From the NCBI GenBank assembly GCA_023213395.1, contig CM041465.1, positions 140,561,741 through 140,625,740 of the forward strand: DNA of 64,000 bases, written 5' to 3'. The notes under the pieces were generated by a model. The model saw only the letters and a program-made list of their open reading frames with translations, did not search any database and was not told the origin of the DNA. Both the position numbers and the translations under genes were made by a program. Shown here piece after piece: positions 2,024 through 58,723 of this stretch (position 1 is its first letter; each line of letters begins with the position of its first letter). This stretch comes from Cycas panzhihuaensis. Taxonomy: Eukaryota > Plantae > Cycadophyta.

Positions 2024-2026
2024 TTC

Positions 2027-31024: not shown

Positions 31025-32110
31025 AAGATGATCGTAATGAACATTAAGGGGGAGTATGTTAGGATTAATGTTCCTCACCCTACTCCTACTTTAGAAACAT
31101 ATGAGTATACATATATTAATGGTAAGTTAGGTAAGTTTATTTTAATATTAAATTATGCATTATTTTATATTATTTTGAATCCTAAAGGTTGAGGAGATTT
31201 CCCTCCTCCCTCATAACTATATATCTTATGGGGTGCATAACCTTGGTGTTCTTCAATACCACCTACTTTAGAATATTTGTATACTCTTCAACTATGGCTT
31301 GAATACAATGATGTATTTTAAATAAATTTTTAATATAGATTGAGATCATTATTTATCTACTCTGCTATACTCTCTGTTATATTTTCAACATATACTTCAT
31401 TAATTGTACTTAAATATTTAACATAAATACCTTATAATTTTTTATATTTTATTATTGATTATTATAATTTCATATTAATGAATGCTTCATAGATCTCTTA
31501 CTTCATTATGTACTTTAATCTATTATCCTAGGTAATAAATTTTAACATGGCATCAAAGCTAAGGTAAAGTGTAGAGCATAGGTGAAGGAAGGTTCATGTG
31601 AGACATTAATTAGAGTTATATAATACAATATAAAGCTTAACAAAATAGATATCAAAATCCTCATATTTATACGGATGATCTTTGCCATCTAAAGATGATC
31701 CATAAATGTATTGTAAGAGCCAATATGAGCTACTAATAAGAGCTGGTATTGAATATCGATTTAAAGCCAAAAACCAAGTTATATTGATTATGTAGCCATG
31801 ATATAGAGGCATATTAAAGTGAAGTTAAAGTTATACATAGAATGAAAACTGACATAAGATTGACAAGTAATATTATTTATATGATGATTTATTATGGATA
31901 TTTATATGCATGTGGTATACCTATATATAACATGTAGGTTTATAAAGTACATCGAGAAGTTGATCATCCTATAAGAGTGAGTTGCAAAGTCTATTACTCT
32001 ATCAATATATGTGAAACATGTAGCATATATGTATGTGATATATGGAAGATTTAAAAAAGTAAGAAAGAAAGTCATATTAATAATAAGATAAATCCCATTG
32101 GTGGGGAAAA

Positions 32111-35124: not shown

Positions 35125-38100
35125 ATGGCTATAAGTTTTTATAACATGATCATTTCCAAGTTTGATAGATCAAATCTTTTGAATTGGAGTAGGAAGATGA
35201 GACCCATCCTCATTGCTAAGAATATATGGGATATTGTAAAGATAAGGTATATAGAAATTAGTCAAAATACCATTGAAGCAGAAAAACAACTATTTAAGGA
35301 ATATGTAAAGAAGTATAATGAAGTTTTAGCCTTTATTTTTTATGCCTTAGAAGACCATATATTTCCAAGAGTTAATGAGGCATCAAAGTCTAAAGAGGCA
35401 TGGGACATATTGTTGCTCATCTATGAAGGTGTAGCCTCATCTAACCTCCAAATATTGAAAAGCAAACTTGAAATATTAAGGATGATACCCAGTGAATCCA
35501 TCAATAAATTCATAATAAAGGTTCAAGACCTTGTGAATCAAATGAGATATCTTGGTGAGACCCTTATTAAACAAAGGGTTATTTAAATGAATCTTATGTA
35601 TGTTAGTGAAGTCAAAAGGTTTAAGATGATAGTTACAAGTATAGAAGTCTCTAAAGATATAAGCACATTAAAGATTGAATAATTGAGTGCCATGTTAATG
35701 GCTATTGAAAAGAAAAGAAACTTAAATGAATCCTTAGAATATGCCTTTATAACTAAGGTAAGAATCAAGTCTAATTTCCAAGTTGAAAGTGTAAGATCAA
35801 GTAACCAATCCCCAAGTGGGGAGAGATAGAAATCCTAGATAAGAGACATACCAAGAGAGTCAACCTAGATACTAAGCTCCCTATCAAAGGAATCAAGGAG
35901 TTAATCAAAGATATCCAAGTCAATAAAGATATCAAAGTCAAGAAAGACATTAAGAAGTAAACCAATTATATCAAAATTACCAAGCTCATATTAACTTTCA
36001 AAGACCTAACTTCAATTATCCAAGCAATAGACAAAGAGATAATCAGGGTCTATACTTGGAAAGGGGTAGAACACTCTCTATTGATTGAGGACACCTTAGA
36101 AGTAGGATTCTTAGCCAAAGAGGAACTGATCCAATTTAATCAGGGTCTATACTTGGAAAGGGGTAGAACACTCTCTATTGATTGAGGACACCTTAGAAGT
36201 AGGATTCTTAGCCAAAGAGGAACTGATCTAATTTGTTATATATTTTGCCACAAAGTTTTTCATACTAAAGATAGGTACTTTGCTAAGAATGGCCCTCCTA
36301 TAAGGGGTAGTGCTAATGCAATTATTAAAACTAGAGAGAATGAATGCCTATGTTTATCAAGCCTTTTTGCATATAGAAATAAAGAAGATTGTTGGTATAT
36401 AGACTCTAGTTGCTCCACACATATGACCCATGAAGAAGAGATATTTCAAACCATCGAAAGGTCTAGGAAGGGCACAATTATGTTTGGTGATGATACATCA
36501 CATGAATCTAGTGGAAGGAGAAAAATTATCATCATGATAGATTTAGATGAAAATAGATATCCTGATAATGTTCTCCATGATCTAGCTTTAAAGAAAAATC
36601 TTCTATCTGTGGGACAGATGATGGAATAGAACTATAAGGTTATATTTGACAATGATAATTCTACTATCAAAGATAAAAGGAAGAATAAAGTTGTTATTTC
36701 AAAAGGACAAATGACTAAAGATAGACTTTTCAAGTTAATTATAACTCCTTCAAATAACTATGCCTTAAAGATAACAATCAAATTAGATAGTGACATGTGG
36801 CATAAAAGATTTAACCACATAAACTATGGAAGCTTAGCTCTTATGAAGAGAATGATTATGGTTGAAGGACTACCATAAATTAAATCCAACATGGATATTT
36901 GTGAGGGGTGCCTCTTAGGGAAGTAACATAGAGAAAGTTTCCCTGATGGAAGCTATAGAGCAAAAGGGCCACTTTATTTAATCTACATAGATCTTTGTGG
37001 TCCAATGGACATCTCATCACTAGATAATGTAAAGTATTTCCTCATCTTTATCAATGATTATATAAGAAAAACATGAGTCTATTTTCTAAAATTCAAGGCA
37101 AATACTTTTCAATGCTTTGTAGACTTTAAAATCTTTATGGAGAAGCAAAGTGGATATAAGATACTTTCTCTAAGATCAGATAATAGAGGAGAGTTCATTT
37201 CTAATGAATTTAATACTTATTATATATATTATAGCGTTAGAAGGCAATACACAAACCCCTATACTCCATAACAAAATGGGATTGTTAAACATAAAAATTA
37301 CACCATAGTTGAGATGGTTGGGTGCATGCTTAAAGACAAGAGGTTTGGACATTAATTTTGGGCAGAAGTTGTCCACACTGCAGTTTACCTCCTAAGTAGG
37401 TATACCACCAAGGCCCTTAGGTGGATGATACTTGAAGAAGCATGGACTAGTTATAAACCTAGTATCCATCACTTGAGAATTATATAAGGTATATAACCCA
37501 AAAGAAAGAAAGGTTATGGTTAGTAGAGACATTGTATTTAAAGAAGATGACTATTATTAATCAGATTATTTCTAAGACAAAGGAAATAATGTTATAATAA
37601 ACTTTAACTCATCTCCTAGGTCTATATATGTATCACCTAGACAAGATTCAAGGTAAAATATTGGTGTATTAAGACCAAGTGATGAGGGAACCTACTCTGA
37701 ACCTCAAAGATTTCCTAAATAGGTTCAAAGATTCTATGACTTGGATAACATATTAGACAATAACTTTGATAGGAGATCTACTCATTCACATCTAATTAAT
37801 TTTGTCCTTATGAGTCGAGTAATGGAATCCCATGAGCCTCACACTTTTGAAGAGGCAAATACTCGTGATGAATGGAGATGAGCTATGAAAGAAGAATATA
37901 ATTCTATAGTAAAAAATGATACATGGAAAGTCATTGAATTTCCTCCTAACAAAACTTCCATTGGAACCAAATGGGTCTATAAGACCAAGTTCAGATTAGA
38001 TGGATCCATTAGCAAACATAAATCTAGACTTATTACAAAAGGATATGCACAAAGAGAAGGTATAGATTATAGTGAAACTTTTACTCCTATTACTCAGATA

Positions 38101-38300
38101 GAAATTGTTCATATGATATTGAGTCTAGCTACCCAAAAAGATTGGGATATTTATAAAATGAATATTAAAAGTACCTTTCTTAATGGCTACATTGAAGAGG
38201 AAATTTATGTTCAACAACTAAGAGGTTTTAAAGTTAGGGAGAAAGAAAATAAAGTGTATAAACTTAAAAAGACACTTTATGATTTAAACTAAGCACCTAG
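35125..38300 (+). pseudogene. Copia D gag-protease-integrase-RT (N-terminal part), decayed
   Basis: UBN2-type gag at 35125-35586; WYIDSSCSTHMT; KKNLLSVGQ; IDLCGPM; RSDNRGEF; FWAEVVHTAVYL; KNDTW...KWVYKTK...KGYAQREGIDY; FLNGYIEEEIYV. Confidence 0.95.
36040..36233 (+). repeat. 97-bp tandem duplication (one mismatch) in D gag
   Basis: 36040-36136 equals 36137-36233 except CCAATT/CTAATT. Confidence 0.95.
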
Positions 38301-40304
38301 TGTTAAAAGGTAATGTTTAATGTATACATCATATACACATACACTTCCTACCATTCACTTACTTCAAGATATGTGAGATGCATACATATTGATGTTATAC
38401 CACTATTAGATGATGTAAATACTCATTATATGTGATTGGTTACTCATGAGGTGATTATCACTATAGATTTGTACTCTCACCACTTGAGAACTTGAGAAAG
38501 GAGAGAAGAGAAAGATGTAATCTTTATGATCATAAGCAAAGCCCTAACTCCACCTTCTCCCATTGTTTTTCCCACACTGGGTTTTCCATGTATAAATCTT
38601 GGTGTCTTGTGGTGATGATTATGTTTGATGATTGTTTTAATTTACATGTTTGATGTTTCATACTCATGAGTTTATATGATTACATCTTCATATTTTTAAT
38701 ATGGTATCAGATCCATGCATGTATATTTTAACATGGTATCAGAGCCATGCATGCATATTTTAAGATGGTATCATAATAATATTGCATGTAAGCTACTATG
38801 GTAAGGTGGAGATCCTACTAATCTAGATTTAGGCCTATCAAGCCCATGACAAAAGCCATTGATGAAGAGTATTTTTTAATGAGCCAGTATATTCATATAC
38901 CAGTGACATGCATGATTATTTATAGGATAGATGAATCCAGTCAAGCTGCATACATGAAAGATACTATAGATACTAATAGTATGTTGATTTGGTATTTTAT
39001 GTAGATATTCATTTATGCATATTAGTGCCAGATTCTATAGAGCATGCAAGTATTCATAGTAGTCTATAGATATTATATTCAATCCATAAGTAAAGGCTCT
39101 TGAGAGTGTTCATTAATGGATTCTCTATCACTCATGGACCATTCTAGAGGCATTTACTAGTGTCTCACAATGAGATTCAATACCAGAATAAAGATAATCC
39201 ATCAGTACACATGAAACAGGAAGCGGCCATGTATAACACCCTATTGACAAGTATTTTAGTGACAATATAAAATGTATGCTTGAAACATATAACGACATGA
39301 TTATATCTAAGGTTGGCATTGAACGAGTGTTTATTTTATTATAGTATGAAGTTATTATGGTGGCATAAGATTATGGTAACTTGAGATGAAGTAATTATAG
39401 TATCATGTGATATGTTAAAGGCACCTTATGCATGTGATATATGATATAAGGTGAATTTTTTTATAGTGTTATTCAAACCCTAAGTCAAACATGGAGGATG
39501 ATCATGCCCAACACCCATGGTTTGATTAATGGCTACTCTATATAAGAGCTCTTGCCTTTATAACTAGCCATATAGAGAGAGTTTGATTCACTCTCATGTC
39601 ATGGGATCTCAGCCCATGCTACCTTCTCAACCCCATGCATGCCTTTTTTTATCATGGCCATCACATAAAAATGGAAGAGATGCTATAGCCACCTGGTTGT
39701 GATACCTACCATGGAGTTCACACAGTCTGTTAGGATTATATATAGCCATCCACATAGAAGGGCCATAGAAATGAAGTAACCCTTGCCTTTTCTCACATAC
39801 AAACAAACCTCAAATCTTCCTTTATTTTTCCTACCATAAATAAAGGAAGCAGGGCCATCAAAAGAACCTACCTCATAACCTATCATACAATTAATCGTAC
39901 ATATATATGGGGAGATAAAAACCTACATATAAGCATATAGATGCAGTTGGAGATCATCTACTTGGTCACAATCCTAATCATGCATAAATGGACTAGATGC
40001 CATTCAATTGGTACCATTGATATATATGCATGCCTTCAATCTAGAGAATGGCCTAGATTGTGTCTTGTCGTCCAACCTATTCATGATTATGCCCTGTAGA
40101 TAAAAATATTTTTTTGATGACCACCCATCTAGTACTTTGTCATAATGCTCAATAGAGACCATGCCATCACTGTAAACACATGCCCATTACCCTGCCATAA
40201 TACCATACATATCTATAGAGATCAATAACCTGCCAACGTTTAAGGAGAGCTAAAATAAAAATCGGGTGAATTGTATAGACATATTTGGTAAAGTGTGAGA
40301 CATA

Positions 40305-40736: not shown

Positions 40737-41294
40737 CAATTAAGTGTAGTCCAGCCCTAATGCAATAGATAGATTGGGTTATATATCTTAATTAGTATAT
40801 GCATTCATCACAGATCATAGAGATATAATCCACACAGAATAAAATTTTATTTTATGAATAATTATTTTGTAGGAAAAAATATTGCAGGAGAACAGGGCAT
40901 AACATAGAATAATCTTCAATAGATAAATACATCAATACAAATCTTCAATACATCAATGTTACAATGTAGCATACATATGAAAGTTTGAATCTTCAATCCA
41001 TTGTTGAAAGTGAGCAATAAAAATTTCCCAAATGAGGGTGGTGTCTAAAAATACCAGGGTTGCACACCCCTCAATATTTATAATTTGGAGGAGGAGGGAA
41101 ACTCCTCAACCCCTGAATTCAAAATAATAATAAAATAAAGTTAACTTAACTCAAATGAAACTAACTTAAATCAAAGTTAAACTTACCTTAACTTACCTCG
41201 ACATGTTGAGCACCACATATCTAAATTGAAGTTGATGAGGTGTATAATCCTGGTTGGAAAGGTGAGAGTGGAGTGATGATGATTAACTCCAACA

Positions 41295-41957
41295 TTCTCC
41301 CCCTTAATGTCATCACGAACACTTGTATCTTTTCCTTTAACTTATGGAACTTGTATTTGAAAAAAACTTTGAAATTCTAATCTTTATCTTTATCAACTAT
41401 TCTTATTCTTTCAGCAACACGTATCCTTGTACCATGAAGTGGTACAAAAAATCTATAAGTAAAATGCAAAAAATCTAGTGCAAATAAAGCTTGATTCAAG
41501 CAGGTATGTATAGTTACAACTTTGACTTTCACTTCTGAAATTTTAACTTTAACTATCATATCATTAGGTCTCTTTTCTGTCATATCAGATTCATTCTCCA
41601 TCATGTCATAGGATTCATTTTCATTCTCCCCCTCAAATGGAGGATCAAATCCTTGTGTAAAAAGTTGGTCCTGCATTTGATCTGCATCTTCATTAGTTTT
41701 GTCAACATGATCTACTTGTTCTATTACCTATCTTACATGCTCAACAAAAATATCATCAAATACAAGGATGGTATCTCCCCCATAAGTGGAAATTAAAATA
41801 TCCCAAATAGATTTAGAAGTAGTTAATTCATAAACCTTTAAAAAAACATCATCATTCATAGTGCAAAATAATAATCCTAACGCTTCATTATCCTTTCTAA
41901 TGTTTTCCTTAATACTAACATCATAGTCATCTTGCAAATATTTCCATAAACCATGTG
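41295..41957 (-). pseudogene. B1 mini-gag ORF, main part (its N-terminus is at 47648-47720, split off by B2)
   Basis: Rejoined MKNYFI/THGLWKYLQDDY. ORFs 41728-41937 and 41377-41676 are in one frame. Ends KVFFKYKFHKLKEKIQVFVMTLRG. Confidence 0.88.
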
Positions 41958-42275
41958 TAATATGAAGGAAAATATACTTGCACGAGAACAGGGTAGAACA
42001 TATATCAAATAACTATAAACCAATATTGCATCAATACATCAATGTATCACAATCACAATAGTATAAACCATGAAAGCATTATTGTTTAATCCATTGTAGC
42101 AGAAAAAAGTGATACAAATTTCTCATTTGAGGGCGGTGTCTAAAGACACCAGGGTTGTACACCCCATTATATAAATAGTTTTGGGGGAGGAGGGAAACTC
42201 CTCAACCCTTGAATTCAAATTAATAATAAAATAATGTAACTTAACTCAAATGAAACTAACTCAACTTACCTTAAC

Positions 42276-43124
42276 TTACCTTGACATATTGAGCATCACA
42301 TGTTTAAATTGAGGTGCACAATCCTGGTAGGTAAGAGGGAGTTGAGTGATGACATTACACTCCAACATTCTCCCCCTTAATGTCAGCACGAACACTTGTA
42401 TCTTTTCCTTGAATTTATGGAACTGGTGCTTGAAAAAAACTTTAAAATTTGGATCTTGTTCTTTATCAACTATTCTCACCCTTATAGCCACATATGTCTC
42501 TTTATCATGGAATGATGTAGAAAAACTATAAGTAGATGAAACTTGATTCAAATATAAATGAATAACTGTAATTTTGACTTTGTCAACTGGAACATTGAGA
42601 ATGCTTTGAACTTGAACTTTTGTAGTCTTTATGCTTTGAACAACTACCATATCATCAGGTTTATTCTTTGTCATACCATCAGATTCATTCTTCATTATGT
42701 CATAAGATTCATCTTCATTCTCCCCCTCGAATAGAGGATCAGGTACTTAGGTAGCAAGTTGGTCCTGTATTTGATATGAATCCTTATGGGTGTTATCGTT
42801 ATGCTTCACCTGTTCTGTCACCTGTCTCACATGCTCATCAAAAATATCATCAAATACATGGAGGGTATCCTCCCCATAAATGGAAATCAATAAATCCCAA
42901 ACAGGCTTAGATGTTGTCAAATCACATACCTTTGAAAAAATTTTATCATTCATAGTACAAAATAATAAACCTGATGCTTCATTATCCTTTTAAAAAATTT
43001 CTTTAATGCTAAGGTCACATTCATGTTGTAAATACTTCCACAAATCATGTTCAATAAAATAAGTTTGCATGGTGTCATACTATAGTGAAAAGTTATGTCC
43101 ATCGAAAATGGGAAATTGTGCCAT
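42276..43124 (-). pseudogene. B2 mini-gag ORF, 283 codons with 3 premature stops, reading into the 3' LTR
   Basis: MAQFPIFDGHNFSL*YDTMQTYFIEHDLWKYL...KDNEASGLLFCTMNDKIFSKV...WDLLISIYG, then an acidic linker, then KVFFKHQFHKFKEKIQVFVLTLRGRML...MSR*. Confidence 0.88.
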
Positions 43125-44599
43125 TTTATCAAAAAACTTTAGTATGTAAAATGAATATGCTTTAACAAGTTAAAATATCAATAAATCAATGAATATATAT
43201 GATTTCAAATGCCCTTTAGAAAGTTAGTCAACTAGGCATAATAAGGAAATAATCTTTTTTTTTTTAAATGATAAAAAAACTTTTCAATATATGTACGCCT
43301 TTCAAATAAACTTTGAGATAAAGTGAATATAAGAGCATATATAAAGATCTTTTGCCTTGATAATAATGTAAAAAGCTGAAAATGAAATATATAAAAGTAT
43401 TTTTCACTTTGAAAAAATAACAATATAAAGAAATTTTTAATAAAAAATTAATATGCTTCTTAAAAGAAAGTTTGAATGATAACCTTAGGTTTGAGGGATT
43501 CAAAAGTATATTAAATGATATCAAAATGATATAAAACTTTACAAGTATAAAGATAAAAAAAATATGAACCCAACGGAACTAACCGTTCTGAAAATGGGTT
43601 CCTAGAAATCAAGTTTTAGTGAATCAAAGGTACAGGCCCCATTTTGAGGCTAAACAGGAGCAAGGGGTCAAAATGCTAACAAAATACTTATAAAATGTTA
43701 TAAGGTGATCAAATATTGTTTATAAAATTGTTCAATATACTTTCAATTGAAATTTGTTTTTTAAATATATTTAAAATGTGTAAAAATAGTAGATTTGAGG
43801 CAATAAAGTATCTCTACTTTGAATGATTTGAAAGTCAGGAAAAATATGTCAAAATGTATAAAACATTATGTAAAATCGAAGAAAATTGAGTCAGCTTCCC
43901 AACAAAATTGGCGGAATTGAAATCTAAAACAAAATAAAAAAGTTATAGCAAAAATGGTAATAAGTGTCTTTATGTAAACTGTTAAGAAACAGGCTAAAAA
44001 CAACTAAATTCTCACTTTTAGCAATTAAAATACTAATGAAAATGAATTCAAAAAATTAAAACAAGAAGTGGATATTAAAGTTTGTAGAACGTAGATTGCT
44101 ATAGAAGAAATCCAAGCAAAAACAATTTACCAGTAATAAATCACAGCTAGTTCTAAAAATGATTTTGTTAAAAGTGTGAAAAAGACTGAAATTTTGAATG
44201 TCTGACGTTAAATTGGCTGAAACAGGGTCAAATCGGCACCAAATTGGTCATATGACCAGTCAAAATTAGTGTACAAAAACTTTTTGATCTAGTGGAGGTG
44301 GTTTCGTCAGAAACCAATGCTCCAGTGAAGAGTTATGGAAAAAAAATGCCAATAACCCTATAAAAGATAAAAAATTAAAAAAATAAATAAAAAGAAAACG
44401 TTTATAAAAAGGTGAAAAACCCCTTTAGAGATAAGTTACGATCATAAGAGTATGAATATGACCAAGAACAGTAAATAGAAGGAGCTAAATCCCTTTAAAC
44501 ACATAGATCACATGGATTTAAAAATTTATATAATAAATTTTAATTTTTTTTAAACTTTGTATTATTAAAACTATATTAAAACTATATAAGAAAAATGAA

Positions 44600-46340
44600 G
44601 TCAGTTGTATTAAATGGCAATGCCACTGACAAATATTCAACAACAATATTCAACATTAATGGCTATGCCGTCTGCTGATATAATATATATATAATATAAA
44701 AGATGCTCAAACGCCAGAACCTAATAATGGCTATGCCACCGTCCGTCGATATAAAAAGATGAAAAACGATCATCCGCCATAAAAAACTAAAAGCTGAAAA
44801 CACTCAAACTGCGTGCCAACGGCAATGGAAACACACAACGCTGAAACAGAGATGGGAAGACGAAGGAGATAACGCCAGCGCCAATGCCAATATATATATA
44901 TAATAGCAGCGCTGTAGGGTGCCAATAACGTACGTGTAGGCTGTTTTCTGCATGCCAAACCTGCGTAGAGGTGCTGAGAGCTACGCACCAATAACCATTG
45001 TGAGCCACTGTACTCCCAATGCAGATCGCCAGCTGCTAATGCCAATGATAATAAAAGTATAGAAGCGAAGCGTTGCACCCAATGCAAGACGACTGTTCAA
45101 TCGCATCTGCCAATGATATGCAACGTGAGACGGCTGTTCAAGCATCACTACGGGCAAACACAGTTATTAACCCAATGCAATACGGGATACCAAGGCACCC
45201 AACACGCAATCAAATGCACAAATAGAGTTGCAGAACAGGGAAGGAGACGCCAAGGGATATCAGACGCCAACGGAGGAAACTACTAATCTCTCTGATTATG
45301 TAATAAGTGAAGAAACTGGTGCGGCAAAGGATGGCATTAGTTGACTTATATTATTAGTCACAGATGTTCTATCTCTGTATTAATCCTATTGGCGCTATGT
45401 ATATGCGAGACAAAAGATGATGGTAAGGACACAATAAATTTTGAATCTGTATCTGAAACTAAGGATGAAAGCTTGAAAGCAGGAGAGGATGCAACTGTTC
45501 AATGGAATGGATTCAGACACCAATGGAGGAGGAGCCGGATAAGTTCCAAATGTTTAATGGAAATGTTGATTTAAGAAAGAAGAAAAAAAAAAATCACACA
45601 AATACGCTTACATAAATGCACCAAGCAACTATTTGATCCCAATGTCTTTAATGCTTGGATGGTCCTCTTTTTTGTTATGCCGAAAAGACTAGTTCTTGCT
45701 AAGGGCCAGCGTCCCCCTTCAAATGGAACAGTTCTATTGAATGTTTAGAACAATAATCTGAACGGTAGTAAACAGGGTCTTGGAATATATATGTATATAT
45801 TAGAAATGATAAAAGATAATCTGGCAACTAGGTAAATAAAGTTATTTCAGCTGCCAACCAAGTAACTAATGCAGTAAGGATGGCTACAGTGAAAGATATT
45901 AAGAGACAAATGGATGGCAACGTGCCTATTCCAGAGGTATCAGTGGTCAGGTTTATGTAAGATATTATAATCAATAGGAATTTGATAAGCTTAAATAAAA
46001 ATACTTCAAATTGTGCTCTTATCGTTTAGCATCATTGCATATAAATGCATCTATATGATGTATTGTTTTGAATTTTGTCTCTATACAATAATAATAAAAT
46101 TGGGTTTTAGAAAATATTTAAAAGAAAATATATAGATATTTATACAAAAACATGAGAAATGTTGAGTTTTTTTTCTGTCTACTCTTGGTAAGACAAGTTG
46201 AGATAGTCTGGCCTAGAATATATGCCAGGTCTTGTAAAAAAATATCTTAGTGGAAATAAGGAAAGCTATAAATAAAGATATAATGAAAGGCAAGCTTTCT
46301 TTCTATTGATTCAATAGAGCACAAATCAACAAGAAATTTC
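44600..46340 (+). other. Variable cargo slot of B2: CpG-rich GCCAA-repeat block followed by exon-like fragments
   Basis: Lies between blocks conserved with B1 (up to 44248 and from about 46345). No visible similarity to the B1 slot. Confidence 0.65.
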
Positions 46341-48887
46341 TAAATATTTTGACAAACAGAAATAAGTCAAGCAAATATCATACATGTAGGTGTATCTGAA
46401 ATCTTTTTAAATGTATCTTGCAGTAGATATATTAGAAATATATATGTAAATCTGAAAAATGTAATTAAAAAAACCTCATAATGTAGCTGATTTGCAGACT
46501 TATAGCAGGTTAACCCTTACATATGAGATCTTCAAACTTTCAAGTGTATTCTTCAACAGATAGATCTGTTGCATATACCTCTTCGGATGGCTGAAAATGC
46601 CCCAAAAGTTACAGATATGCAACTGCTATCTTTTATAGATTAAAATATAGCTTGTAGCTGAAAAAAAGACTTTTATGAATCTACACAAATTTGTGAAATA
46701 ACACTGAAATATACTTGTTATATCATAAAAAATAACCGAATAATGAGTGAATCTATTGAAAAATATAATAAATCTGTTTAAAAACTTGTAGAAAATATCA
46801 CTAAATGATGAAGAATCGCAGATCTGAAGTGAGACCTAGTAGATCTACAAAAATATTATGTAAATGTTATAGATCTGACCTAAGTATAGTAGATTTATAG
46901 CCAAAAATATTATAAATCTGAACAAATATACTAGAAAATAGTGAAAAAACTTGCTGAAATAAGCAGATCTATAGTAAAAAATAGCAGACCTGAAGTAACA
47001 AATTGTAGATCTTTAAAGAAAACTTGATAACTTTTGTATGCAGCTAATGCTCTTTTGCAAATCTGCGAAAAATATCAAATAAGTAGACAAAACCTTGTAA
47101 ACTGTCAAAATATATAATAAATCTGTAGATCTGAAGAGAAAATAACTCAAATATGAGAATAAAAACTTGAATGTATATAACTTGTTGCTAAAAATCCTAC
47201 GTAGATCTGCACAAATCTTCACAGATTAGTAATCGCCTGCTCTGATACCAAATAAAGGAAAATATACTTGCAGGAGAACAGGGCAGAACATATATCAAAT
47301 AACCATAAACCAATATTGCATCAATACATCAATGTATCACAATCACAATAGTATAAACCATGAAAGCATTATTATTCAATCCATTATAGCAGAAAAGAGT
47401 AATACAAATTTCTTATATGAGGGTGGTGTCTAAAGACACTAGGGTTGTATACCCCATTATATAAATAGTTTTGAGGGAGGAGGGAAACTCCTCAACCCCT
47501 GAATTCAAATTAATAATAAAATAATGTAACTTAACTCAAATGAAACTAACTCAACTTACCTTAACATGTTGAGCATCACATGTCTAAATTGAGGTACACA
47601 ATCCTGGTAGGTAAGAGGGAGTTGAGTGATGACATTACACTCTAACACAATAAAATAGTTTTTCATAACCTTATGCCATTCTGAAAAATTTTGCCCATCA
47701 AATATAGGTAATTGTGCCATGTTATAAAAAACTTTAAAACATATAAAGTATACTTTTACTAAATCAAAAGAGTCAATAAATGAATAATGTTTGATATGAT
47801 GTCAAATATCCTCTTTAAAAAAAAAGTAATGCCCTTTGAAAATGAATCAATTGAATATAACCTTTATAGGTACAATAAGAAAATAATTGTTGCAATAATG
47901 ATAAATGCTTTCAATATATGTATGCCTTTGAAATAATCTTTGATATACTTTTTAGATATAATTTGAGATAAAATGAATATAAAAATAAGTTTGAATGTAA
48001 TAAAGATCCTTTAAGTATGCAAATTTGAAATAAACTTTAATGATAAAAAAGAATAAAATTTTCAACCTTTTGATTTTTTCAAATGTAGGGGTATGTCAAA
48101 TGCTTAAGTTTAACAACTTCAAAAGTATACTGAACGATATCAGAATAAGGTGGAACTTCACCATCATGAAGGTAAACAAAATATGAATCCAAGGGAATTG
48201 ACCATTTTGAAAACAGATTTGTATAAGTCAAATTTTGAATGACCAAATTTGCAGGCCTTGATTTGAGGCATAACAGGAGTAGGGGGCTCAAAATTATATA
48301 AAAATACTAATAAAATACTTGTAAAATGCTATAATGTAATCAAATATTATTTTTAAGATTACAAAATATACTTTCAATTGAGAAAAATTAAAAAATTATA
48401 TATAAAAAGTGTAAATATGGCAAGTTTAAAGTAATAAAGTCCCTTTACGTTGAGTGATTTGAAAAATAGTAAAAATATATTAAAATGTATAAAAAAAAAA
48501 ACTATTTCATATCAAAGATAATTGAGCCAGCTTCCCAATAAAACTGACAGAACTGAATTTGGATGCCAAACAGAGAAGTTATAGCAGAAATGCCAACATG
48601 TACCTTTATGGTAAAATGTTAAGAAAAATGTTAAAAACCACTAAAATGCCACTTTCGGTGATTAAAATAGTGGTCAAAATGAATTCTTAAAAATAAAATA
48701 AAAGATGGATAATGAATTTTGTTGAATATAGATCATTGTAGAACAAATCCAGACAGAAAATAATTTCCTGGTAATAAAATATAATGAGTTCAAAAAGTGA
48801 TTTTGTAAAAAGTTTAAAAAAGGCTGAAAAAATGACTGATTTAACTTTAAATCAACTGAAATGGGGTCAAATCAGCACCAAATTGGT

Positions 48888-50570
48888 TCACATCTTTAGG
48901 AACTACAAATTGTCCAACGATCTTCGGCTGAGAATTAGATTTCCTTAATTAATATAGATTTGGATAGGCTTGTTGGGAATATTGATTGGGTTCATGAGAC
49001 CAAAGATCATAGAAAATTTCTCGTAATGTGTTGTTACTTTGTAGCAAAGTGTCCTTAACAAGTTATAGCTTGAAAGAGGCCCTTTTGATCACTGAAGGAT
49101 TCATGGCTATTGAAGTAAATTTTACAAATACTAGAGTCGTTACATCACGAGCTCTTGCCCTGCCCTTGTCTTTTCAAAGAACTCAAGTATATTTTGTTGT
49201 TCTCAATCTCATCGAGATACCATAGTGGGTTTTGTTTAAGAAGGAGAGCAAACATCATGGTTCAATATGTATGTATTATTATTGATATTACTATTATGTT
49301 TTCTTCACAGTAATTTACAACGAGGTTGTATATTCTCCTTTTTTGGTTAAGCAATGGTTGTAGGATAACACATACTGCGTTTGATTACACTGCTGTGTTG
49401 TGCATGTAATAACACTAGATTGCATGCATGTCATATAAGATTAAATGCTCTACTCAGTATTTGCAACCATTAAATAGACTTTTTTATAGAATGATATGCA
49501 TCCTATTTGTTTCTATTCACAGAATGAAATTCTTGTTTGTTTCTTGAATTGTCTGCTCAGCAAGGAGATGCTCTTGCTAGAGAGCTAGTATTTGATGATA
49601 TGATTTTGGTTTCAGTCAATGTTAGAGCAGCATGAGAATGAGATTTTGAACCAGTTTTCTATAACAAAAAAATGGCAGACTTTATCGCCGCTTCGAATAA
49701 AAAAGTTAAGTGTTGTTTTCTCCCTCTAAGAGGAAAAATCTACTGATTTCATAAAAGTTGTTTCGATGATCTTTTGGCCGTTTTGAAAGTTGAATGCATT
49801 GTACTGAAAAGTTACAGTCTAAGAACTGTGGTAGAAATTTGACTGTTGCTAGAATGAGCTATGCACCTTGTAAGTACTTAGGCTACTCTCCATAATCCTT
49901 GAGGATGTTGGTGCCTTTTTAACAGCAGAACCTCACAACGTGTATAGAATGCAAAATGCTAATAGACTAGATAAATCAACACCACTTTTATTGTGGTTTT
50001 TGTTTGAAAAAAAAATAAATGTTACCATGCTTTGTAAATGGATGTTGTTGTTGCTAATATTGAATTTCAGTTCTCAAGCTAGGGTTTGGATGATTTTTGC
50101 TCACATGAAGTAATAATATCTTGAGTAGTTTGATCTTTAGATACTTATCCTTTTGAAGATATGGCTCAACAATTGGGCCTATACTTAAAATCACACATAT
50201 AACAAAGGGAAAAAGAGGTTCTTGAGGTAAATATGGCTCTGCTACCAAATTACTTAGCAGATCTCAATTAGGGTCATGGATCTACACAACGTGAGATTCA
50301 AGTATCAATTGATACTGAATATACAGTGAAGAAAAAAAATATTTTAGAAAATGTTAAGAACGATTGCTCTTCAAAAATGTAGTTATGGAATCAAATCAAA
50401 CGAATGGCAAGTTAAAGTAGGATTCTACTAGGTTTGGAGGATATAACTCAAGTCAGAAGTTGGAAATACTGATGAGTAATGGTTAAAGAGTTGTACTTCA
50501 ACCCAGATTTGTATGAGTATAGGCCTTTCAATGTGAATACTTCAAATAAACCAAATCTTTTCTTTCCCCC
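48888..50570 (+). other. Variable cargo slot of B1: array of exon-like fragments with short GT...AG stubs
   Basis: B1/B2 homology ends at CACCAAATTGGT (48887) and resumes at about 50578. Repeated YAG / GTA-type boundaries flank short, mostly open frames. Confidence 0.6.
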
Positions 50571-53500
50571 TTTTTAATATATTGACAAAAAATATATCTG
50601 GCAAATAAGATGCATGTATATGTATTTGAGATATTTTCAAATATATTGTAGATATATTAGAAATATGTGTTCAAAACTAAAACAGTAACTAAAGAACCTG
50701 GAAGATGTAGCTGTAGTAGATTTGTAGTTGAAAATAGGCTTCAAAGCTTCTAGTAGACAGATCTGCAGTATATACTTCTTCAGAAACCTAAATATGTTCC
50801 AAAGATTATAGATCTGTAAAAAGACTTAAGAATGTAGTCAAAATATGTGATGAAAAAATATAGATCTGAAAAGAAATATAGCAGATCTGAACTAAATGTT
50901 GCAGATCTGAAATAACTATGCCAGAAAATAGTGTAATACTTCCTGAAATAAGCAGATCCGAAGTAAAAACCAGTAGATCTAAAAGAATATTTAATATTTG
51001 AGTAGAATAAACTAGGAAACTATCAAATATTTGATACAAAGAGCAGATCTAAAAAATATAAGCCAGATCTATAGAAAACTATGGTAGATTTAAAGTAAAA
51101 ATTATAGATCTTGAAGAAAAAGCCATATGAATCTTACATGCAACTGATCTCCTTTACAGATCTGCGAAAAATATTAGATAAAATAGATAAATATACTTGA
51201 AAAACTATCAAATATATGATCAAAATTGTAGATCTGAAAAAATATATATATCAAATATGATAAAAAGCTTGAATACAAATAAATTGTTGCTGAAATACGT
51301 TGATCTTCTTTGTAGATCTAGAAATATAACAAACAATCTGCATAAATCTGAAAAAATCTGAAGTATATTTGTTATACTAGGAAATAGCTCAATAATAATT
51401 AAAACTTGATGAAAAACTAGAGGAAATTTACTGAAAAAAAATTACAGAAAATAAATATCACTGATATTATTTACTTGTGTGAAAATCTGCCTCAAAATCT
51501 TCTTGCTTTTTCGAAAAACTTCATAGATCAGCAATCGCCTACTCTAATACCAAATGTAGGAAAAATAATAGAGCAAAACTATGCTCTGATACCAAATGTA
51601 GGAACAAATATTGTAGGAGAATAGGGCAGAACATAGAATAATATTCAATAGATCAATACATTAATATAAATCTTCAATACATCAATGTTGCAATGTAGCA
51701 TAAACATGAGAGCTTGAATCTTCAATCCATTGTTGAAAGTGAGCAATACAATTTTCTCAAATGAGGGTAGTATCTAAAAACACCAGGGTTGTACACCCCT
51801 CAATATTTATAATTTGGGGGAGGAGGGAAACTCCTCAACCCTTGAATTCAAAATAATAATAAAATAAAGTTAACTTAACTCAAATGAAACTAACTTAAAT
51901 CAAAGTTAAACTTACCTTAACATGTTAAGTATCACATATCTACATTGAAGTTGATGAGGTATACAATCTTGGTTGAAAAGGTGGGAGTGGAGTGATGGTG
52001 ATTAACTCTAACATATTTTTTGAAACTTAAAAAATTTTGTATTTGTTTTCAAAAATTTAATTAAATTGGATAGTTTTTTGAAATCTGGTTTTCAACCCCT
52101 TCATATTGGTAGGTGGTCATATGGAGAGTGTATATGGCTAGGGGCTAACTTATTAGGGACCAAACTTTAAATGCCAATAAATTGAATTGGATAGTTTTTT
52201 ATTTTTTAAAAATTATATTTAAAATTTAATAAAATTTTGATTCCATTACCAATTTCTTAAGGATCACACACTTTTATATGACATACTAGTACATTTTGCT
52301 CCATAACTTCTCATAGGAGTATGAGAATCAGACGTCGTCTGTTGTGTTGGAAAGCTGACTTTAAGAAAGTCATAACGAGTGGTCACACAACCTACTTTGG
52401 ATAGAAGAAGATAGAGAAATTTTAGGGTAAAGTTGATGCAAAGGCGTAAAACATCATTTTGGATGAGTTTTGTGTCAATTTTTAGAAAAATTTCACTCAA
52501 TCCTAATGTTTTTCATGGCTCCAAACATGGTGGTGACCTTATTTTTGAGAAATGGTAGATGATTGTTATAGTTTGGTTTAAAATCAAACATTTTGAGGCC
52601 CATTTATGAAAATTTGAGGCCTATTTCAGTTGAAAATTTACATTAAGTGAAATATTTGATGGATTTATCATATGAGACATCCTTGATATGCTAAACTTTC
52701 ATTTCCCCCTTCACAACATCATATTTGGTTTTGTGGATGATAAAAGCCCTAAACAAACATATAGATTACTTAGATATTAAAACAATTTATGTTATTTAAT
52801 TAGATGACAAATACAATTACCTTGTTACAGTTAACTTACCATTGCCAAGAAGGTTGGCTTGGTCTTAGAGTAGATTATTCAAGATGATCTAGTTGTCGAC
52901 TTAATCTAGCTAATGAAACTTTGAAAAAGTCCTATAAACAATTTAGAGAGATGATGAACCATGTATCTGAAGTGATTTCCTAGTGAACTTGTAATTACAA
53001 TGGTTGGTCACCCATGTATTTCGATAGATGGATTTTATTTTATATGGACTTAGATATCATTTTTCTTGATTTGATGGACAACTTAATATAAATTAAAAAT
53101 AGGCACCACACAGGTGAAGATATGAAGATGTACGCAAAACACGTTATATATAAGTTTATGGAGATAACATATAGTTATAGGTCTTGATAGATTATAGATG
53201 ATTTTGGTGATTAATGTAGAAGCTTTGCTCGAGCCTTATGGTGTGATGAGTTCATCCTAATATATAGGATACAGATGTCAACATACAAGATGAAGACATG
53301 AAGACTCAAGATCAAGATTCAAGGATATTAAACATTATGGGGGGGGTGTTAAAACCTAATGTTTAATGTATACATGATGTACAAATATACTTCCTACCAT
53401 TCACCTACTTCAAGATATGTGAGATGCATGCATATCGATGTTATACCACTATTGGATGATGTAAAGGCTCATTATATATGATAGTCTACTCATGAGGTGA

Positions 53501-53811
53501 TTCTCACTATATATTTGTATTCTCACTACTTGAGAACTTGAGAGAGGAGAGAGGAGAAAGATGTAATCGTTATGATCATAATTGGAGTCCTAACTCCACC
53601 TTCTCCCATGGTTTTTCCCATACTGAGTTTTCCACATATAAATCTTAGTGTCTTATGGTGATGATTATGTTTGATGATTGCTTTACTTTATATGTTTGAT
53701 GTTTTATACTCATAAGTTCGTATGATTACATATTCATATTTTTAATATGGTATTAAATCCATGTATACATATTTTAACATGGTGTCAGATCTATGCATCC
53801 ATATTTTAACA

Positions 53812-54146
53812 CCTAGAGCATGGTACTCTAGGATAGACAAGTATTTCAGAGATCAAGGATTCGAGAGAACCTAATTAGATCCAAATCTATATATCAAAAT
53901 CGAAGGAGATTCTATATTAATTATAGGACTTTATGTTGATGACCTAGTCTATACAGGAAATGACTCCCACCTTTCTCAAAAATTCAAGGATGACATATGC
54001 AAAGAGTTTTAAATTATTGACTTAGATTTAATACATTACTTCCTAAGACTAGATGTTTGGCAAGATGATGATGGTATCTTTGTCTCTTAAAGGAAATATA
54101 CCTTGGACTTACTCCAAAAGTTTAAGATAAGTGATTACAAGGCCTT
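53812..54146 (+). pseudogene. Copia D RT, middle part
   Basis: RAWYSRIDKYF...DPNLYIK...GLYVDDLVYTG. Confidence 0.95.
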
Positions 54147-55482
54147 TGTTAGGTTTAATATTCCTCATCCCACTTCCACCTTAGAAATATATGAGTGCAC
54201 ACATGTTAATGGTAAGTTAGATGCATTTATTTTAATGTTAAGCTATGCATTATTTTATATTATTTTAAATTCTAGAGGTTAAGGAGGTTTCCCTCCTCCC
54301 TCATAACTATATGTTCTATGGGGTTCTAAAGAACGGTGTTCTTTAACACCACCTACTTTGGAACATTTGTATACTCTTCAACTATGGCTTCAATACAATG
54401 ATATATTTCGAATGTATTTTTAATATGGATTGAGATCAATGTTTACCTACTCTGCTCTACTCTATGATACATTTCCAACATTTAGTATTAGAGAACATGA
54501 TTCAACCCATGACAAGTTTATTTACTAATATTTCAATTTATACTATAGTTTTTAATATTATTTCTTATATAGTTTTGATAAATAATTCATGTTTTTATTC
54601 ATACAAGCTTATTAATCATGTTTTTCTCCAAGTATTTATTATAAAATTGAGCACGCTCAGCACAATAATAGTTTAGTATAGTTATTTTCTAAATTTAATT
54701 GATAAAATATTATGTTTTCTATTATTTTACATCATATGTTTAAAGGTTAGGTAAGGTTTTATGATTTCAATAAGCAGGTGCGAACTCTACATTACTCAGA
54801 ATCTTAGCATATTACTATCCGTTTAAATCTTCAGTGAACCAGCTTTGCAACTCATTCAATGGATTTGAAAATCACTACCCCTATGAGGAGATATCTCTCT
54901 GAGAATCTCAGTGGCTCAATTTTTGTAGTGAAACCCCATTGCTCCTTCCTCACGTGCTTATTTTTTCTCATTTTATTTGTTATTTTACTGATTAGACTCA
55001 GGTGCAGGCCTCTCAAGGTCTATGTAAAGTTGTCTTAGGGTTATTTGACATATTTTATAGGTTGTATCACCTCCTATTATATATACAAACTCCCTAGACT
55101 CTAAATCTTAATTCTCAGCATAAGAGTAAGTGTTCAACATGAAATTTGATAGGAGCCTTTCCATTAGAAATATCGAGAAGCTCCTCCATTTTCATCAAGA
55201 TCCGTTGCCTATGTCAGGAGTACAAGCCACTTGAAATCCCCCTACGTGGATGTACTTACTACTCAGGTATTTTCTTAATTTTACATATTTTTTACAAATA
55301 TTTTTTCTTTTTTTTTTTTTTTAATCTATGGAATGGTCCAGTACCAGGAGAACCCTCAGTGATTGAATAGAATCTATTAGGATTGATTTTTATGATAAAA
55401 TCTAATCAGGATCTCTGGTTTCTCACTGTCCATCTATCCTCTATTCTATGCCTTGTTTCTCCTTTGTTTAATTAGTTTCTGA

Positions 55483-55558
55483 ATACACACACACACACAT
55501 ACATACACACATACACATACACACATACACACACACATACACACACACACACACACAT
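55483..55558. repeat. (CA/TA)n compound microsatellite
   Basis: Direct observation. Confidence 0.95.
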
Positions 55559-57689
55559 ATATAAAATCAATCCTCGTGTTGTGGTACCCTTCTCCTATGG
55601 TCAAATTAGTCTGATTTGGATTATTTTTTATGTCTTTCTGACCGAATTCACTCTCTATGCATCGCGTAGTTAATGAGTAATTATTTTTTATTAAAATATT
55701 TTTTTTTAAAGGTTTATGAGAAATTAAATTAAATTTAATAAAACTTTGATTATATGTATGATTTTGGGCTTACCCCCTCCATCAGTTGGCCCCCAGTCAC
55801 ATATACCTCCATATAATCGTGCTTTAATGTTAAAAGGGGCAGATTTCAAACGTTAATAAACTCCTTTTTATATTTTTCATAATAAAAGACCATTAATAAT
55901 ATTCTATAATCCTTTGAGGTCATTTAGACCCCTTGGGCACTTAGTGGTTGGTCATATTGGGTCTATATATGACTAGCAACCTAACTCCAAAGAGGCTTAT
56001 TATATATTTCTTTTAAAATTTTTATTTTATTAATACTCAAAGAGGTCTAGTGGATTTTTTCACTATAACTCTACACTTGAGTGTTAGTTGCTTACAAAGT
56101 TAGACTTGTTGGATTCATATTTTAGTGCTCTTTAGCTTAGTACCATCTTTTATTCAATTTGAGTTTTATTTCAGTAGTGTTTAACTTAATCAAAGCTGAT
56201 CTTCCCTTTCAGCACTTATTTCACTTACCAAAAGGGGGTTTGTTCATTGTTTCTTCAATAACTTAATTATTATAGCTCTATTTTTCAAACTATAAGAAGC
56301 AACGAAAAGAATTTTTAGATCTCTACATATTATAATTAGTTTTATCTTATTTTTATAGTATTTTATAAGTCTTTAAAGCTCCTCAAGTCAAGGCTCTAGT
56401 TTAGCTCTAATAGGCACATTTTGTAATATTTTTGAGTAAATCTTTCATCTTAATTAAATCCATTTGAATATTATTTACTACTAATTAGTTGTTTGATGAT
56501 ATTTATTGGTTTTTATAAGATTACAATTTGATTTACAACTTTTAGCATCAATTTTAGCTTCTTGAGGATCAAGAGGTCTACTTGGATCAATACATCAAAT
56601 TAGTACTAGTTACCTTAATCACTTATTTTATTTTACACTTTCATTTATATTTAGAATAATTTTTTGAGATAATTTTAAATATTATATCTTCTTAAAATTT
56701 TCAAAGTATACCTAATTTATTTCTAAATTTACAAAGGAACTTCTTGTCATTTGATTCACATTAGTACAAAAAATATTATTTCTACATCTCAAAGTCATTT
56801 ATTTAGTTAAAAAAGGCATTGCAAAGGGTATAATCACAAGTTATTTTACTTATTTTTATGCTTCTAAGTTCACTTAATATTCTAAGACTTAAAAGCATTT
56901 AAATATTTAAAGCATTATTGATTTATTACATCGCTTAGAGAGGATGCATATAATATATTTATTTACAAAGAACATCTTAATTTGAAAGATATTAGATTGC
57001 ATTTGATCATTCAAGGAACATATTTTTTCATCATATTTTGATTGATTGAACACACATTTATTTGAAAATTTATATTTCAGGCTTCTTGATTTACTAGTAG
57101 AAGGTGTATTTCAGTTGCTTTAAAGCCATTGCATTTGAAAGTTAAAAAGTGCATAAAAGTGCATAACTATAAACTTATTCTTTTGAACTTTTAAGAATTT
57201 CAAGGTACACTCTATTAAACATTTTATTTTTAAGATATATATATTCATTATTTCTTAAAAGGAATATAGTTTGAATATTATTTTCAATCCAAGAGGGTAT
57301 TTGCCTTTCATTCTTTAAAGAATCTCTTAGCTGATTGATTAAGAAGGCATTTGAACATTAAAATAAATTGAAGTTTCATTTATTTGAATTCTCTTTTTAG
57401 TACCTTATTATTCAATCAAATTTTTGGAAAAGAAGTACATTTAGTTTACTTTGAAAATGAAGCTTGTTATTTTATTTTGCATATTATTTTCAAAGGACCA
57501 TTTATCATTTTCAATTCAAAAGGATATTTGATTACATAAAGAAACATTTATCTCACCTCATTTTTTCATACTTTGAATAGTGAAATTTATTCTAAAGTAT
57601 CATTTATTATTTGTTCATTTAAGGATTACTCTTCTTATTTGTTCATTAAAAATCATTTTTTTTTATCATATACTAAAATCTTTTATACA

Positions 57690-58358
57690 ATGACAATGAA
57701 TCCAAGTAATATAATCTTTTCTATATTTGACAGAAATGATTTTCAGCTATAAAGAATAATAATGAAAGCATACTTTATTGCAAATGACCTTTAAAAGTAT
57801 GTAAAAGATGGATATGTACCAAATATTAAAGAAGATATGAAAAAGGACAATGAAGCCCTAATACTATTATTTTATAGAATAGATGATAATGTATTCTCTA
57901 ATGTTTATGAAATGACCACAACCAAATCTATACAGGATACTTTAGAATTGATTTATGGGGGAGATACCTTGGAATTTAATATTACTAATTATATTAATGA
58001 TGTTTTTCCTGTGAGGCAGATGTTAGAGTAGGTGCATTTTGATGAAAAGACTAATGTTACTTATACTAATATAGATTTCAATAAAAGTAATGACTCTAAT
58101 GTTGTATTTGGTGAGATAATATGTACCTTAGACTTGACTAAAGTAAAAGAAAAATATCAAGATAAAGCTACCTCTACTCATTCAAATCAAGCTATGCCTA
58201 CTTGGAAGCCATTTAAACCACATAATATTAAAAATGCATACTTTGCTGAAAGAATGATAAGGCAAGTTGTTGACTACATCAAGGATGATGATCAAGCTAA
58301 AGGATAAGTATTTAAAGTCCTTTTCAAGTATAGGTACCACAAGTTCAAGGAGAAATAA
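57690..58358 (+). pseudogene. A2 mini-gag ORF, decayed
   Basis: MTMNPSNIIFSIFDRNDFQL*...KKDNEALILLFY...KVLFKYRYHKFKEK*. Confidence 0.85.
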
Positions 58359-58723
58359 AAGATGATCATGATGAACATTAAGGGGCAGTATGTTAGGGTT
58401 AATATTTCTCACCCCACTCCTACCTTAGAAATATGCGAGTACACACATGTTAACGGTAAGTTAAGTGAGTTTATTTTAATATTAAGTTATGCATTACTTT
58501 ATATTATTTTAAATGTTGAAGCTTGAGGAGGTTTCCCTCCTCCATCACAATTATATATTCTATGGGTTTTAAACATTGATGTTCTTTAACACCACCTACT
58601 TTGGAACATTTGTATACTCTTCAACTATGTCTTCAATACAATGATATATTTCAAATGTATTTTTAATATAGATTGAGATCAATGTTTACATGCTCCACTC
58701 TGCTCTCTATTATATTTCCAACA

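What the first reader, a model, noticed from the sequence alone, without database searches (positions are those of the whole stretch)
45270..46340. B2 has different cargo in the same slot, same orientation and same architecture
Seen: no similarity to the B1 slot, yet again plus-strand exon-like pieces. Examples: TATTAG|AAATGATAAAAGATAATCTGGCAACTAG|, a 19-nt stub GTAAATAAAGTTATTTCAG (45832-45850), then 45851-45936 (ANQVTNAVRMATVKDIKRQMDGNVPIPE|GTATC). Also coding-like runs such as ETKDDGKDTINFESVSETKDESLKAGED and LFDPNVFNAWMVLFFVMPKRLVLAKGQRPPSNG. Inference: two relatives with unrelated cargo of similar size at the same position suggest a dedicated capture hotspot rather than a single accident.
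Basis: partly seen in the sequence, partly recalled or inferred. Interest (0 to 1): 0.72.

Follow-up and report, generated by a model that had tools for sequence, protein, structure and literature searches.

The report
Retrotransposon slot of backwards mRNA scraps
A crippled jumping gene in what is likely a conifer genome carries, at one fixed spot, a patchwork of very short pieces (33-138 bases) that match four different host transcripts, one of them demonstrably and all of them likely backwards, and a relative holds unrelated DNA at the same spot, so the spot is likely a site that captures host messenger RNA again and again.

Summary
Largely confirmed, with one correction. B2 (41963-47647) and B1 are related, pol-less Copia LTR elements on the minus strand. 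Between conserved flanks, in the long leader before gag, they hold unrelated ~2 kb slots. In an RNA-like run, four different long contigs each match one short piece of 45620-46342 (88, 33, 138 and 46 nt; 85-97% alike) and run on into unrelated sequence at both ends. The first piece is importin-7/SAD2 coding sequence; the third looks like a MORN-repeat protein end (recalled). The pieces read on +, opposite to the element's PBS, gag and PPT. DNA runs show the same cargo in many contigs, variant junctions, and summed depth rising toward the leader: a weak hint of ordered accumulation. Best reading: repeated RNA-templated capture, likely by template switching during plus-strand synthesis, then amplification, decay and deletion. 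Gene capture by LTR elements is known; my searches found no antisense micro-mosaic in a fixed leader slot. B1's donors, spliced origin and order are unproven.

The parts
41963..42367 (-). B2 3' LTR
   Evidence: 94.9% to 47253-47647; 18 of 20 mismatches are transitions
42368..42379 (-). Polypurine tract next to the B2 3' LTR
   Evidence: sequence
42780..43061 (-). Copia gag remnant; no pol follows
   Evidence: PF14223 E 1.6e-8; no pol family in 42279-42746
43052..44249 (-). Backbone conserved with B1 (47648-48888); left flank of the slot
   Evidence: 68% over 1256 columns, E 1e-170
44250..44600 (-). Slot part 1: resembles the leader backbone of sister elements A1/A2/C, in the element's own sense; absent from B1
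44601..45270 (.). Slot part 2: CpG-rich block (GC 44%, CpG o/e 0.95), origin unassigned; strand skew like the backbone
   Evidence: no reads laid
45271..45622 (+). Slot part 3: coding-looking runs, donors unassigned
   Evidence: no family; no reads laid
45623..45710 (+). Captured piece of importin-7/SAD2 coding sequence (residues 214-242 of P0008), antisense to the element
   Evidence: 88 nt, 7 differences to a 3917-nt RNA-like contig; 96 of 97 candidates hit, the named ones nearly all importin-7/SAD2; tblastn E 6e-8
45739..45771 (+). Captured 33-nt piece of a second transcript, gene unknown; strand inferred from the most nearly open frame
   Evidence: 1 difference to a 2468-nt contig, loose ends on both sides
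45831..45968 (+). Captured 138-nt piece of a third transcript: end of a reading frame, stop and start of 3' UTR; likely a MORN-repeat protein (recalled). Contains the supposed 19-nt intron
   Evidence: 21 differences, 0 gaps to a 2194-nt contig
46055..46100 (+). 46-nt piece matching near one end of a fourth transcript contig, includes AATAAA; likely 3' UTR, direction of transfer uncertain
   Evidence: 3 differences to positions 1729-1774 of a 1931-nt contig
46343..47238 (-). AGATCT-rich leader conserved with B1; right flank of the slot
   Evidence: 62% over 886 columns, E 3e-50
47239..47250 (-). Primer-binding site TGGTATCAGAGC (initiator-Met tRNA type, recalled)
   Evidence: sequence
47253..47647 (-). 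B2 5' LTR; 5-bp target duplication TAATA (41958-41962) / CAATA (47648-47652)
48889..50575 (+). B1 slot: unrelated to the B2 slot, donors unassigned; U/G-rich words skewed to +
   Evidence: protein searches negative
40868..52013 (-). Host element B1 (LTRs 40868-41294 and 51597-52013, 92%; target duplication TATTT) into which B2 is nested

Best explanation
The slot of this pol-less Copia element is a patchwork of short host-transcript pieces lying in the leader between the primer-binding site and gag, one of them shown and the others likely antisense to the element, and they were likely picked up repeatedly when reverse transcriptase borrowed from an autonomous relative hopped onto co-packaged mRNAs, most likely while making the plus strand. 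Shown: the element anatomy, the fixed slot, four different donor contigs, the antisense orientation of the SAD2 piece, and cargo junctions shared by DNA contigs of other runs. Inferred: an RNA template (42% of the tested stretch matches transcripts); plus-strand switching (copying an mRNA into the plus strand gives antisense cargo, copying it into the minus strand gives sense cargo, and plus-strand extension crosses this region right after the second strand transfer); later amplification with the element; neutral decay; trimming by deletions that keeps the slot near 2 kb. The cargo is most likely a passenger, though the element's RNA would be complementary to many host mRNAs.
For: Four distinct RNA-like contigs of 1.9-3.9 kb each match one 33-138 nt piece and leave it on both sides; 305 of 723 nt are covered. 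The loose ends of the first contig, read by hand, continue SAD2 in frame: 9 of 10 residues before and 10 of 10 after match P0008 204-213 and 243-252. PBS, gag (PF14223) and PPT are on the minus strand. The slot edges coincide in B1 and B2 while the contents are unrelated. DNA contigs of other runs bridge the cargo junction at 45968 (records 10, 17) and the cargo-leader edge (records 12, 18), so the mosaic is not an assembly error. Other contigs diverge at 45829/45831, skip 46175-46305 or break at 46238, 46333 and 46356. Decay pattern: 12 of the 15 listed differences in the third piece fall on codon positions 1-2. Among the transitions counted for the RNA run, 11 of 13 have A/T in the window where the transcript has G/C (P 0.02), as expected of a methylated, unselected copy. 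No Helitron or TIR ends at the slot edges.
Against: No piece was shown to span an exon-exon junction. The SAD2 piece lies inside what ORFs called on genomic DNA suggest is one exon, so genomic DNA as template is not excluded. Orientation rests on four pieces: one by database, one by recall, two by weak cues. All four agreeing has a chance of about 1 in 8 under random orientation. Junction microhomology could not be tested. I found no paper that documents plus-strand switching onto mRNA (the primary papers were not held), so that step is reasoning, not precedent. Maize Sireviruses show no orientation bias (10.1101/777037, passage). B1's slot has no identified donor. The U/G word skew seen in B1 (87 vs 41) is absent from B2's cargo (27 vs 28), so that test is unvalidated. 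About 350 nt of the B2 slot is TE-like and in sense. The RNA run's kind is a guess by the tool, and it carries another organism label than the DNA runs laid.
Confidence: 0.5

Rival explanations
1. DNA-level repair fills a fragile, dispensable leader interval with short templated patches (from genes or cDNA) in either orientation. Copies with sense pieces are then lost because poly(A) and splice signals cut the element's RNA, leaving an antisense bias.
For: The pieces are very short, as filler DNA often is (own knowledge). No splice junction was shown. The fourth piece holds AATAAA on +, which would be harmful in sense. An element-like piece sits in sense at 44303-44589.
Against: 42% of the tested stretch matches transcripts, far above the exon share of a conifer-sized genome (own knowledge). 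Short coding pieces without signals should be tolerated in sense.
Confidence: 0.25
2. One or a few large chimeric cDNAs, made elsewhere (for example by a LINE reverse transcriptase jumping between mRNAs), inserted backwards into the leader of different lineages and were whittled down by deletions. There is no ongoing piece-by-piece acquisition.
For: It explains one orientation per slot in a single step. Deletions are evident: other contigs carry extra sequence at 45829/45831, and some skip 46175-46305. An L1-type LINE is present in the window (recognised by eye). Multi-gene chimeras from one round are reported (PMC5131818, passage).
Against: It needs independent insertions at the same edges in B1 and B2. 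Summed depth differs about 100-fold along the cargo, which suggests pieces of different ages, though that figure is no copy number. No poly(A) tract or target duplication at the slot edges (by eye).
Confidence: 0.15
3. The slot is a nested Helitron or Pack-type DNA transposon on the + strand that captured gene pieces by its own mechanism.
For: Helitrons often carry several fragments, mostly in one orientation (78.6% sense in maize; 10.1101/777037, passage).
Against: No CTRR|T end within 60 nt of either right edge on +. The longest inverted match between the edges is 8 nt in both elements. The flanks are continuous with the PBS leader and the gag backbone.
Confidence: 0.06
4. The transfer ran the other way or is chance: host transcripts contain bits of this repeat, and the slot is fast-evolving TE leader.
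For: Possible for the 46-nt fourth piece, which lies where DNA depth is high. Sister elements A1/A2 also have a poorly alignable stretch in their leader.
Against: The first piece is the middle of a protein conserved from Taxus to grasses, and the window copy carries the decay-type changes.
Confidence: 0.04

Closest known systems
LTR-mediated retroposition by template switching (Tan et al. 2016, PMC5131818; abstract and passages read)
   Same: Partial mRNA pieces inside an LTR element, several donor genes in one locus, a recurrent switch site, and re-amplification as a non-autonomous element.
   Different: There the pieces are long, replace the ORFs and are mostly transcribed in sense, often in frame. 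Here they are 33-138 nt, sit in the 5' leader ahead of a retained gag remnant, and are antisense to the element.
Maize Bs1 (seen only through reviews PMC13317346 and PMC7264820, passages; the primary paper was not held)
   Same: A plant LTR element carrying pieces of several host genes.
   Different: Bs1's pieces form one translated chimeric gene (review passage). Here there is no ORF, the cargo is antisense and decaying, and relatives carry other content.
TE gene-fragment capture in gymnosperms and maize (Bao et al. 2026, PMC13477047, abstract and sections 10, 12, 16, 26 read; Muyle et al., 10.1101/777037, passages)
   Same: Copia elements holding exon fragments, sometimes of several genes; possible silencing cross-talk with donor genes.
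   Different: Both use BLASTN E 1e-40 (shortest piece 90 nt in maize), which would likely miss three of these four pieces. The gymnosperm main text has no occurrence of 'orientation' or 'antisense'. Maize Sireviruses showed no orientation bias. No fixed slot is described in the sections read.
Antisense additional ORFs of Retand/Grande/RIRE2 (PMC11963269, PMC7264820; passages)
   Same: Extra sequence antisense to gag in a plant LTR element.
   Different: Those are conserved intact ORFs of unknown origin between pol and the 3' LTR of Gypsy elements. This is a variable, non-coding mosaic of host pieces upstream of gag in a Copia derivative.

Membership tests
Non-autonomous Ty1/Copia LTR retrotransposon | Two LTRs with TG...CA ends and a 4-6 bp target duplication | tested here: met
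   94.9% LTR pair; one LTR end carries a G-to-A change; TAATA/CAATA
Non-autonomous Ty1/Copia LTR retrotransposon | PBS after the 5' LTR and PPT before the 3' LTR, on one strand | tested here: met
   47239-47250 and 42368-42379, both minus; tRNA type recalled
Non-autonomous Ty1/Copia LTR retrotransposon | Copia-type gag, pol missing | tested here: met
   PF14223 E 1.6e-8; about 400 nt between gag remnant and PPT, no pol family
LTR-mediated retrocopy (Tan 2016 / Bs1 type) | Host transcript pieces enclosed by LTR-element sequence | tested here: met
LTR-mediated retrocopy (Tan 2016 / Bs1 type) | Intron loss (a piece spans an exon junction) | tested here: inconclusive
   The SAD2 piece lies within one apparent exon; donor gene structures are not held
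LTR-mediated retrocopy (Tan 2016 / Bs1 type) | Microsimilarity at switch points | not testable with these tools
   No two identified pieces abut (gaps of 28, 59 and 86 nt)
LTR-mediated retrocopy (Tan 2016 / Bs1 type) | Cargo in the same sense as the element's RNA (follows from the minus-strand switch model) | tested here: not met
   SAD2 frame on +, gag/PBS/PPT on minus
LTR-mediated retrocopy (Tan 2016 / Bs1 type) | Secondary amplification with the element | tested here: met
   14-17 contigs of run X1 cover sites of the third piece; junctions are shared by runs X13 and X14; depth is no copy number
Helitron | 3' CTRR before T at the cargo's end | tested here: not met
   None within 60 nt of the right edge on + in B1 or B2
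Pack-MULE / Pack-CACTA | Terminal inverted repeats around the cargo | tested here: not met
   Longest match 8 nt; none joining the edges
Antisense aORF (Retand/Grande) | Intact conserved antisense ORF between pol and the 3' LTR | tested here: not met
   Stops in all frames; slot is 5' of gag; content differs between relatives

The most novel reading that the evidence does not exclude
This Copia family keeps a polarised acquisition array. Each round of aberrant plus-strand synthesis adds a short antisense mRNA piece at the gag-side end of a leader slot, and older pieces sit toward the PBS. The hundreds of copies would form a dated record of the transcriptome of the cells in which the element replicated, and the element's RNA could pair with, co-package or silence many host mRNAs.
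Probability: 0.2. Interest if true: 0.85.

Novelty: new variant of a known kind. Interest (0 to 1): 0.62.

Why it matters
If the orientation bias and fixed slot hold family-wide, they point to a capture route other than the textbook minus-strand switch, and it can be tested in any assembled genome of this plant group. The pieces are mostly below the thresholds of published capture surveys, so the coding-fragment load of conifer retrotransposons would be undercounted. A high-copy element whose RNA is antisense to housekeeping mRNAs such as importin-7 gives a direct test of TE-gene silencing conflict.

Tried and rejected
No whole genome is held, so the family could not be retrieved. Exact-motif scans for the slot edge and the LTR found 0 matches in metagenome and viral contigs. 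Protein searches with slot translations were negative: Pfam, NCBIfam, PDB (13, 44-49, 58), homologue search for the third piece (14: 7 candidates, none scored) and for one B1 frame (29: 135 candidates, none scored), and phmmer of one whole B2 frame against 1.84 billion representatives (37: 0 hits at E 0.001). These blanks are weak: the SAD2 piece, which is real, was also missed by Pfam and PDB. ESM Atlas could not read new sequences. Rfam gave one hit below its gathering score. Parts of the slot without RNA cover say nothing. Splice-motif counts: donors at chance level; acceptor-like sites in B2 cargo 5 vs 0.9 shuffled, but one of the five (45748) lies inside a transcript match, so they were not taken as intron evidence. 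The conserved left edge folds weakly, with 0 of 17 pairs compensated. A 14-nt palindrome at B2's left edge is one of 11 in the window and absent in B1. Two low-depth DNA contigs over the third piece were first taken for the host gene but lack several of the transcript's letters, so that reading was dropped. Look-ups of earlier findings by place and sequence were empty. PMC3726574, PMC5086612, PMC3185545 and PMC6431247 (passages) gave nothing on antisense capture; PMC2899935, PMC54464 and PMC189744 were not held.

Full report
Setting. The window is a nest of plant LTR retrotransposons and a LINE. The best named full-length protein match of the cargo is from Taxus, so the host is likely a conifer. 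No whole genome is held.

The elements. B2 spans 41963-47647. Its LTRs are 94.9% alike with 18 of 20 mismatches transitions, and it is flanked by TAATA/CAATA. It sits inside B1 (40868-52013; LTRs 92%; target duplication TATTT). The primer-binding site (47239-47250), a Copia gag remnant (PF14223, E 1.6e-8) and the polypurine tract (42368-42379) all lie on the minus strand, and no pol follows gag. In the element's direction the order is LTR, PBS, leader, slot, conserved backbone, gag remnant, PPT, LTR. LTR distances of 0.053 and 0.085 give roughly 12 and 19 million years at the gymnosperm rate used in PMC13477047. This is rough, but it agrees with the nesting order.

The slot. The flanks of B1 and B2 align (scores 504 and 143 against about 27 in 30 shuffles). 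The slots do not (26 against 25.4 +- 1.9), and the breaks are sharp at 44249/48888 and 46343/50576. 44303-44589 resembles the leader backbone of the sister elements A1, A2 and C in the element's own sense (E 1e-11). 44601-45270 is a CpG-rich block of unknown origin. Only 45271-46342 departs from the backbone's strand skew.

What the cargo is. Reads were laid on 45620-46820 only, from 4 of the 24 listed runs. In run X24 (RNA by the tool's guess), 4 contigs were laid, all different and 1.9-3.9 kb long. Each matches one short piece and, for the three whose loose ends are listed, runs on for 255 or more unrelated letters on both sides. The pieces are 45623-45710 (7 differences in 88), 45739-45771 (1 in 33), 45831-45968 (21 in 138) and 46055-46100 (3 in 46), all without gaps. 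Together they cover 305 of the 723 slot bases tested. The first piece is importin-7/SAD2: 96 of 97 candidates scored and the named ones are nearly all of this family. Single E-values are modest (best 5e-4) because the piece is short. It matches residues 214-242 of P0008 at 22 of 29, no other part of five SAD2 proteins matched the window at E below 1, and the contig's loose ends, read by hand, continue the protein at 9 of 10 and 10 of 10 residues. The third piece, read with the contig's letters, looks to me like the C-terminal motif of plant MORN-repeat proteins followed by the stop codon; this label is recalled and no call confirmed it (negative). The second piece is most nearly open on + (one stop, where the contig may differ). 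The fourth lies near one end of its contig and holds AATAAA on +.

Correction. The '19-nt intron' and the donor at 45937 are inside the gap-free 138-nt match, so they are not splice relics. The slot is a mosaic of several genes, not the exons and introns of one gene.

Family behaviour. DNA-like runs under three organism labels hold the same cargo. Records 10 and 17 bridge the junction at 45968, and records 12 and 18 bridge the cargo-leader edge. Copies differ: one contig leaves the window at 45829 and several begin at 45831, two runs skip 46175-46305, and loose ends appear at 46119, 46238, 46333 and 46356. Summed depth in X1 is 5-83 over 45620-45742, 160-650 over 45743-45988, about 2000 at 46030-46111 (dipping to 257 at 46112-46152) and mostly 950-8800 in the leader. 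The tool warns that this is no copy number and that 46% of the run was read, so it is only a hint that leader-side pieces are older or more widely shared. Thirteen of the 15 listed differences in the third piece are shared by most of the DNA depth, so they predate much of the amplification or reflect a paralogous donor. The changes look neutral (12 of 15 at codon positions 1-2) and deamination-biased in the window copy (11 of 13 transitions).

Mechanism. Shown: anatomy, several donors, antisense orientation of the SAD2 piece, shared and variable junctions. Inferred: RNA templates, because exon-derived sequence is so enriched. The standard model (PMC5131818, passages) has reverse transcriptase leave the element RNA for an mRNA during minus-strand synthesis, which yields sense cargo. 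Antisense cargo follows if the enzyme copies mRNA while extending the plus strand, which crosses this leader right after the second strand transfer. I rate this the most likely route (0.5 for the whole account), ahead of DNA repair with selection against sense pieces (0.25), rare large chimeric insertions trimmed by deletion (0.15), a nested Helitron or Pack element (0.06; termini absent) and reverse transfer or chance (0.04). Four pieces cannot establish an orientation rule, no exon junction was seen, and B1's donors are unknown; its only support is a strand skew of U/G-rich words (87 vs 41) that B2's own cargo does not show (27 vs 28).

Known or new. Capture of gene fragments by LTR elements is established (Bs1 through reviews PMC13317346 and PMC7264820; PMC5131818) and is common in gymnosperms (PMC13477047). 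Nine literature searches returned no description of an antisense micro-mosaic in a fixed leader slot of a Copia family; the library lacks most subscription journals and no supplements were read. Unreviewed notes of this scan report backwards host pieces in animal LTR and DIRS elements; these are leads, not support. Verdict: it works like LTR-mediated capture but fails that family's sense-orientation feature, so it is a new variant of a known kind. Interest 0.62.

Noticed in passing
window 32340-59290: Multi-level nest: a decayed full-length Copia (gag 35119-35586, RT 37882-38292, continuing near 53810 and 58724) is split by an element with 464-bp repeats (38300-38763 / 53346-53809, 89%), which holds B1, which holds B2; A2 (54146-58723) interrupts the RT further on.
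   Followed up: partly
window 26571-31391 and 54146-58723: Sister elements A1 and A2 (plus strand, LTRs about 75% alike to B's, gag remnant, no pol seen) also have a poorly alignable stretch in the leader (about 27825-28385 vs 55392-55680, the latter with a CA microsatellite); whether it holds host pieces is untested.
   Followed up: partly
window 44601-45270: CpG-rich block (o/e 0.95 against 0.2-0.5 around it) with recurring GCCAATG/AATGGC words inside the B2 slot; origin unknown.
   Followed up: partly
window 44245-44258: Perfect 14-nt palindrome exactly at the left slot edge of B2, broken in B1; one of 11 such palindromes in the window.
   Followed up: partly
window 51525-51600: B1 carries a short duplicated PBS-plus-LTR-end stub just inside its true PBS.
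   Followed up: no
window 42370-42780 and 41296-41720: In B1, B2, A1 and A2 the gag remnant runs into an acidic coding-like stretch that reaches the PPT; Pfam gave no family for the B1 and B2 stretches.
   Followed up: partly
window 17068-22155: Decayed plant L1-type LINE on + (recognised by eye from the ORF list, not scanned).
   Followed up: no
window 36040-36234: Near-exact 98-bp tandem duplication inside the Copia gag-pol.
   Followed up: no
window 1-1849 and 13110-14932; 11078-11273: A 1.8-kb direct repeat pair at 77% (likely old LTRs) and a 29-bp tandem array between them.
   Followed up: no
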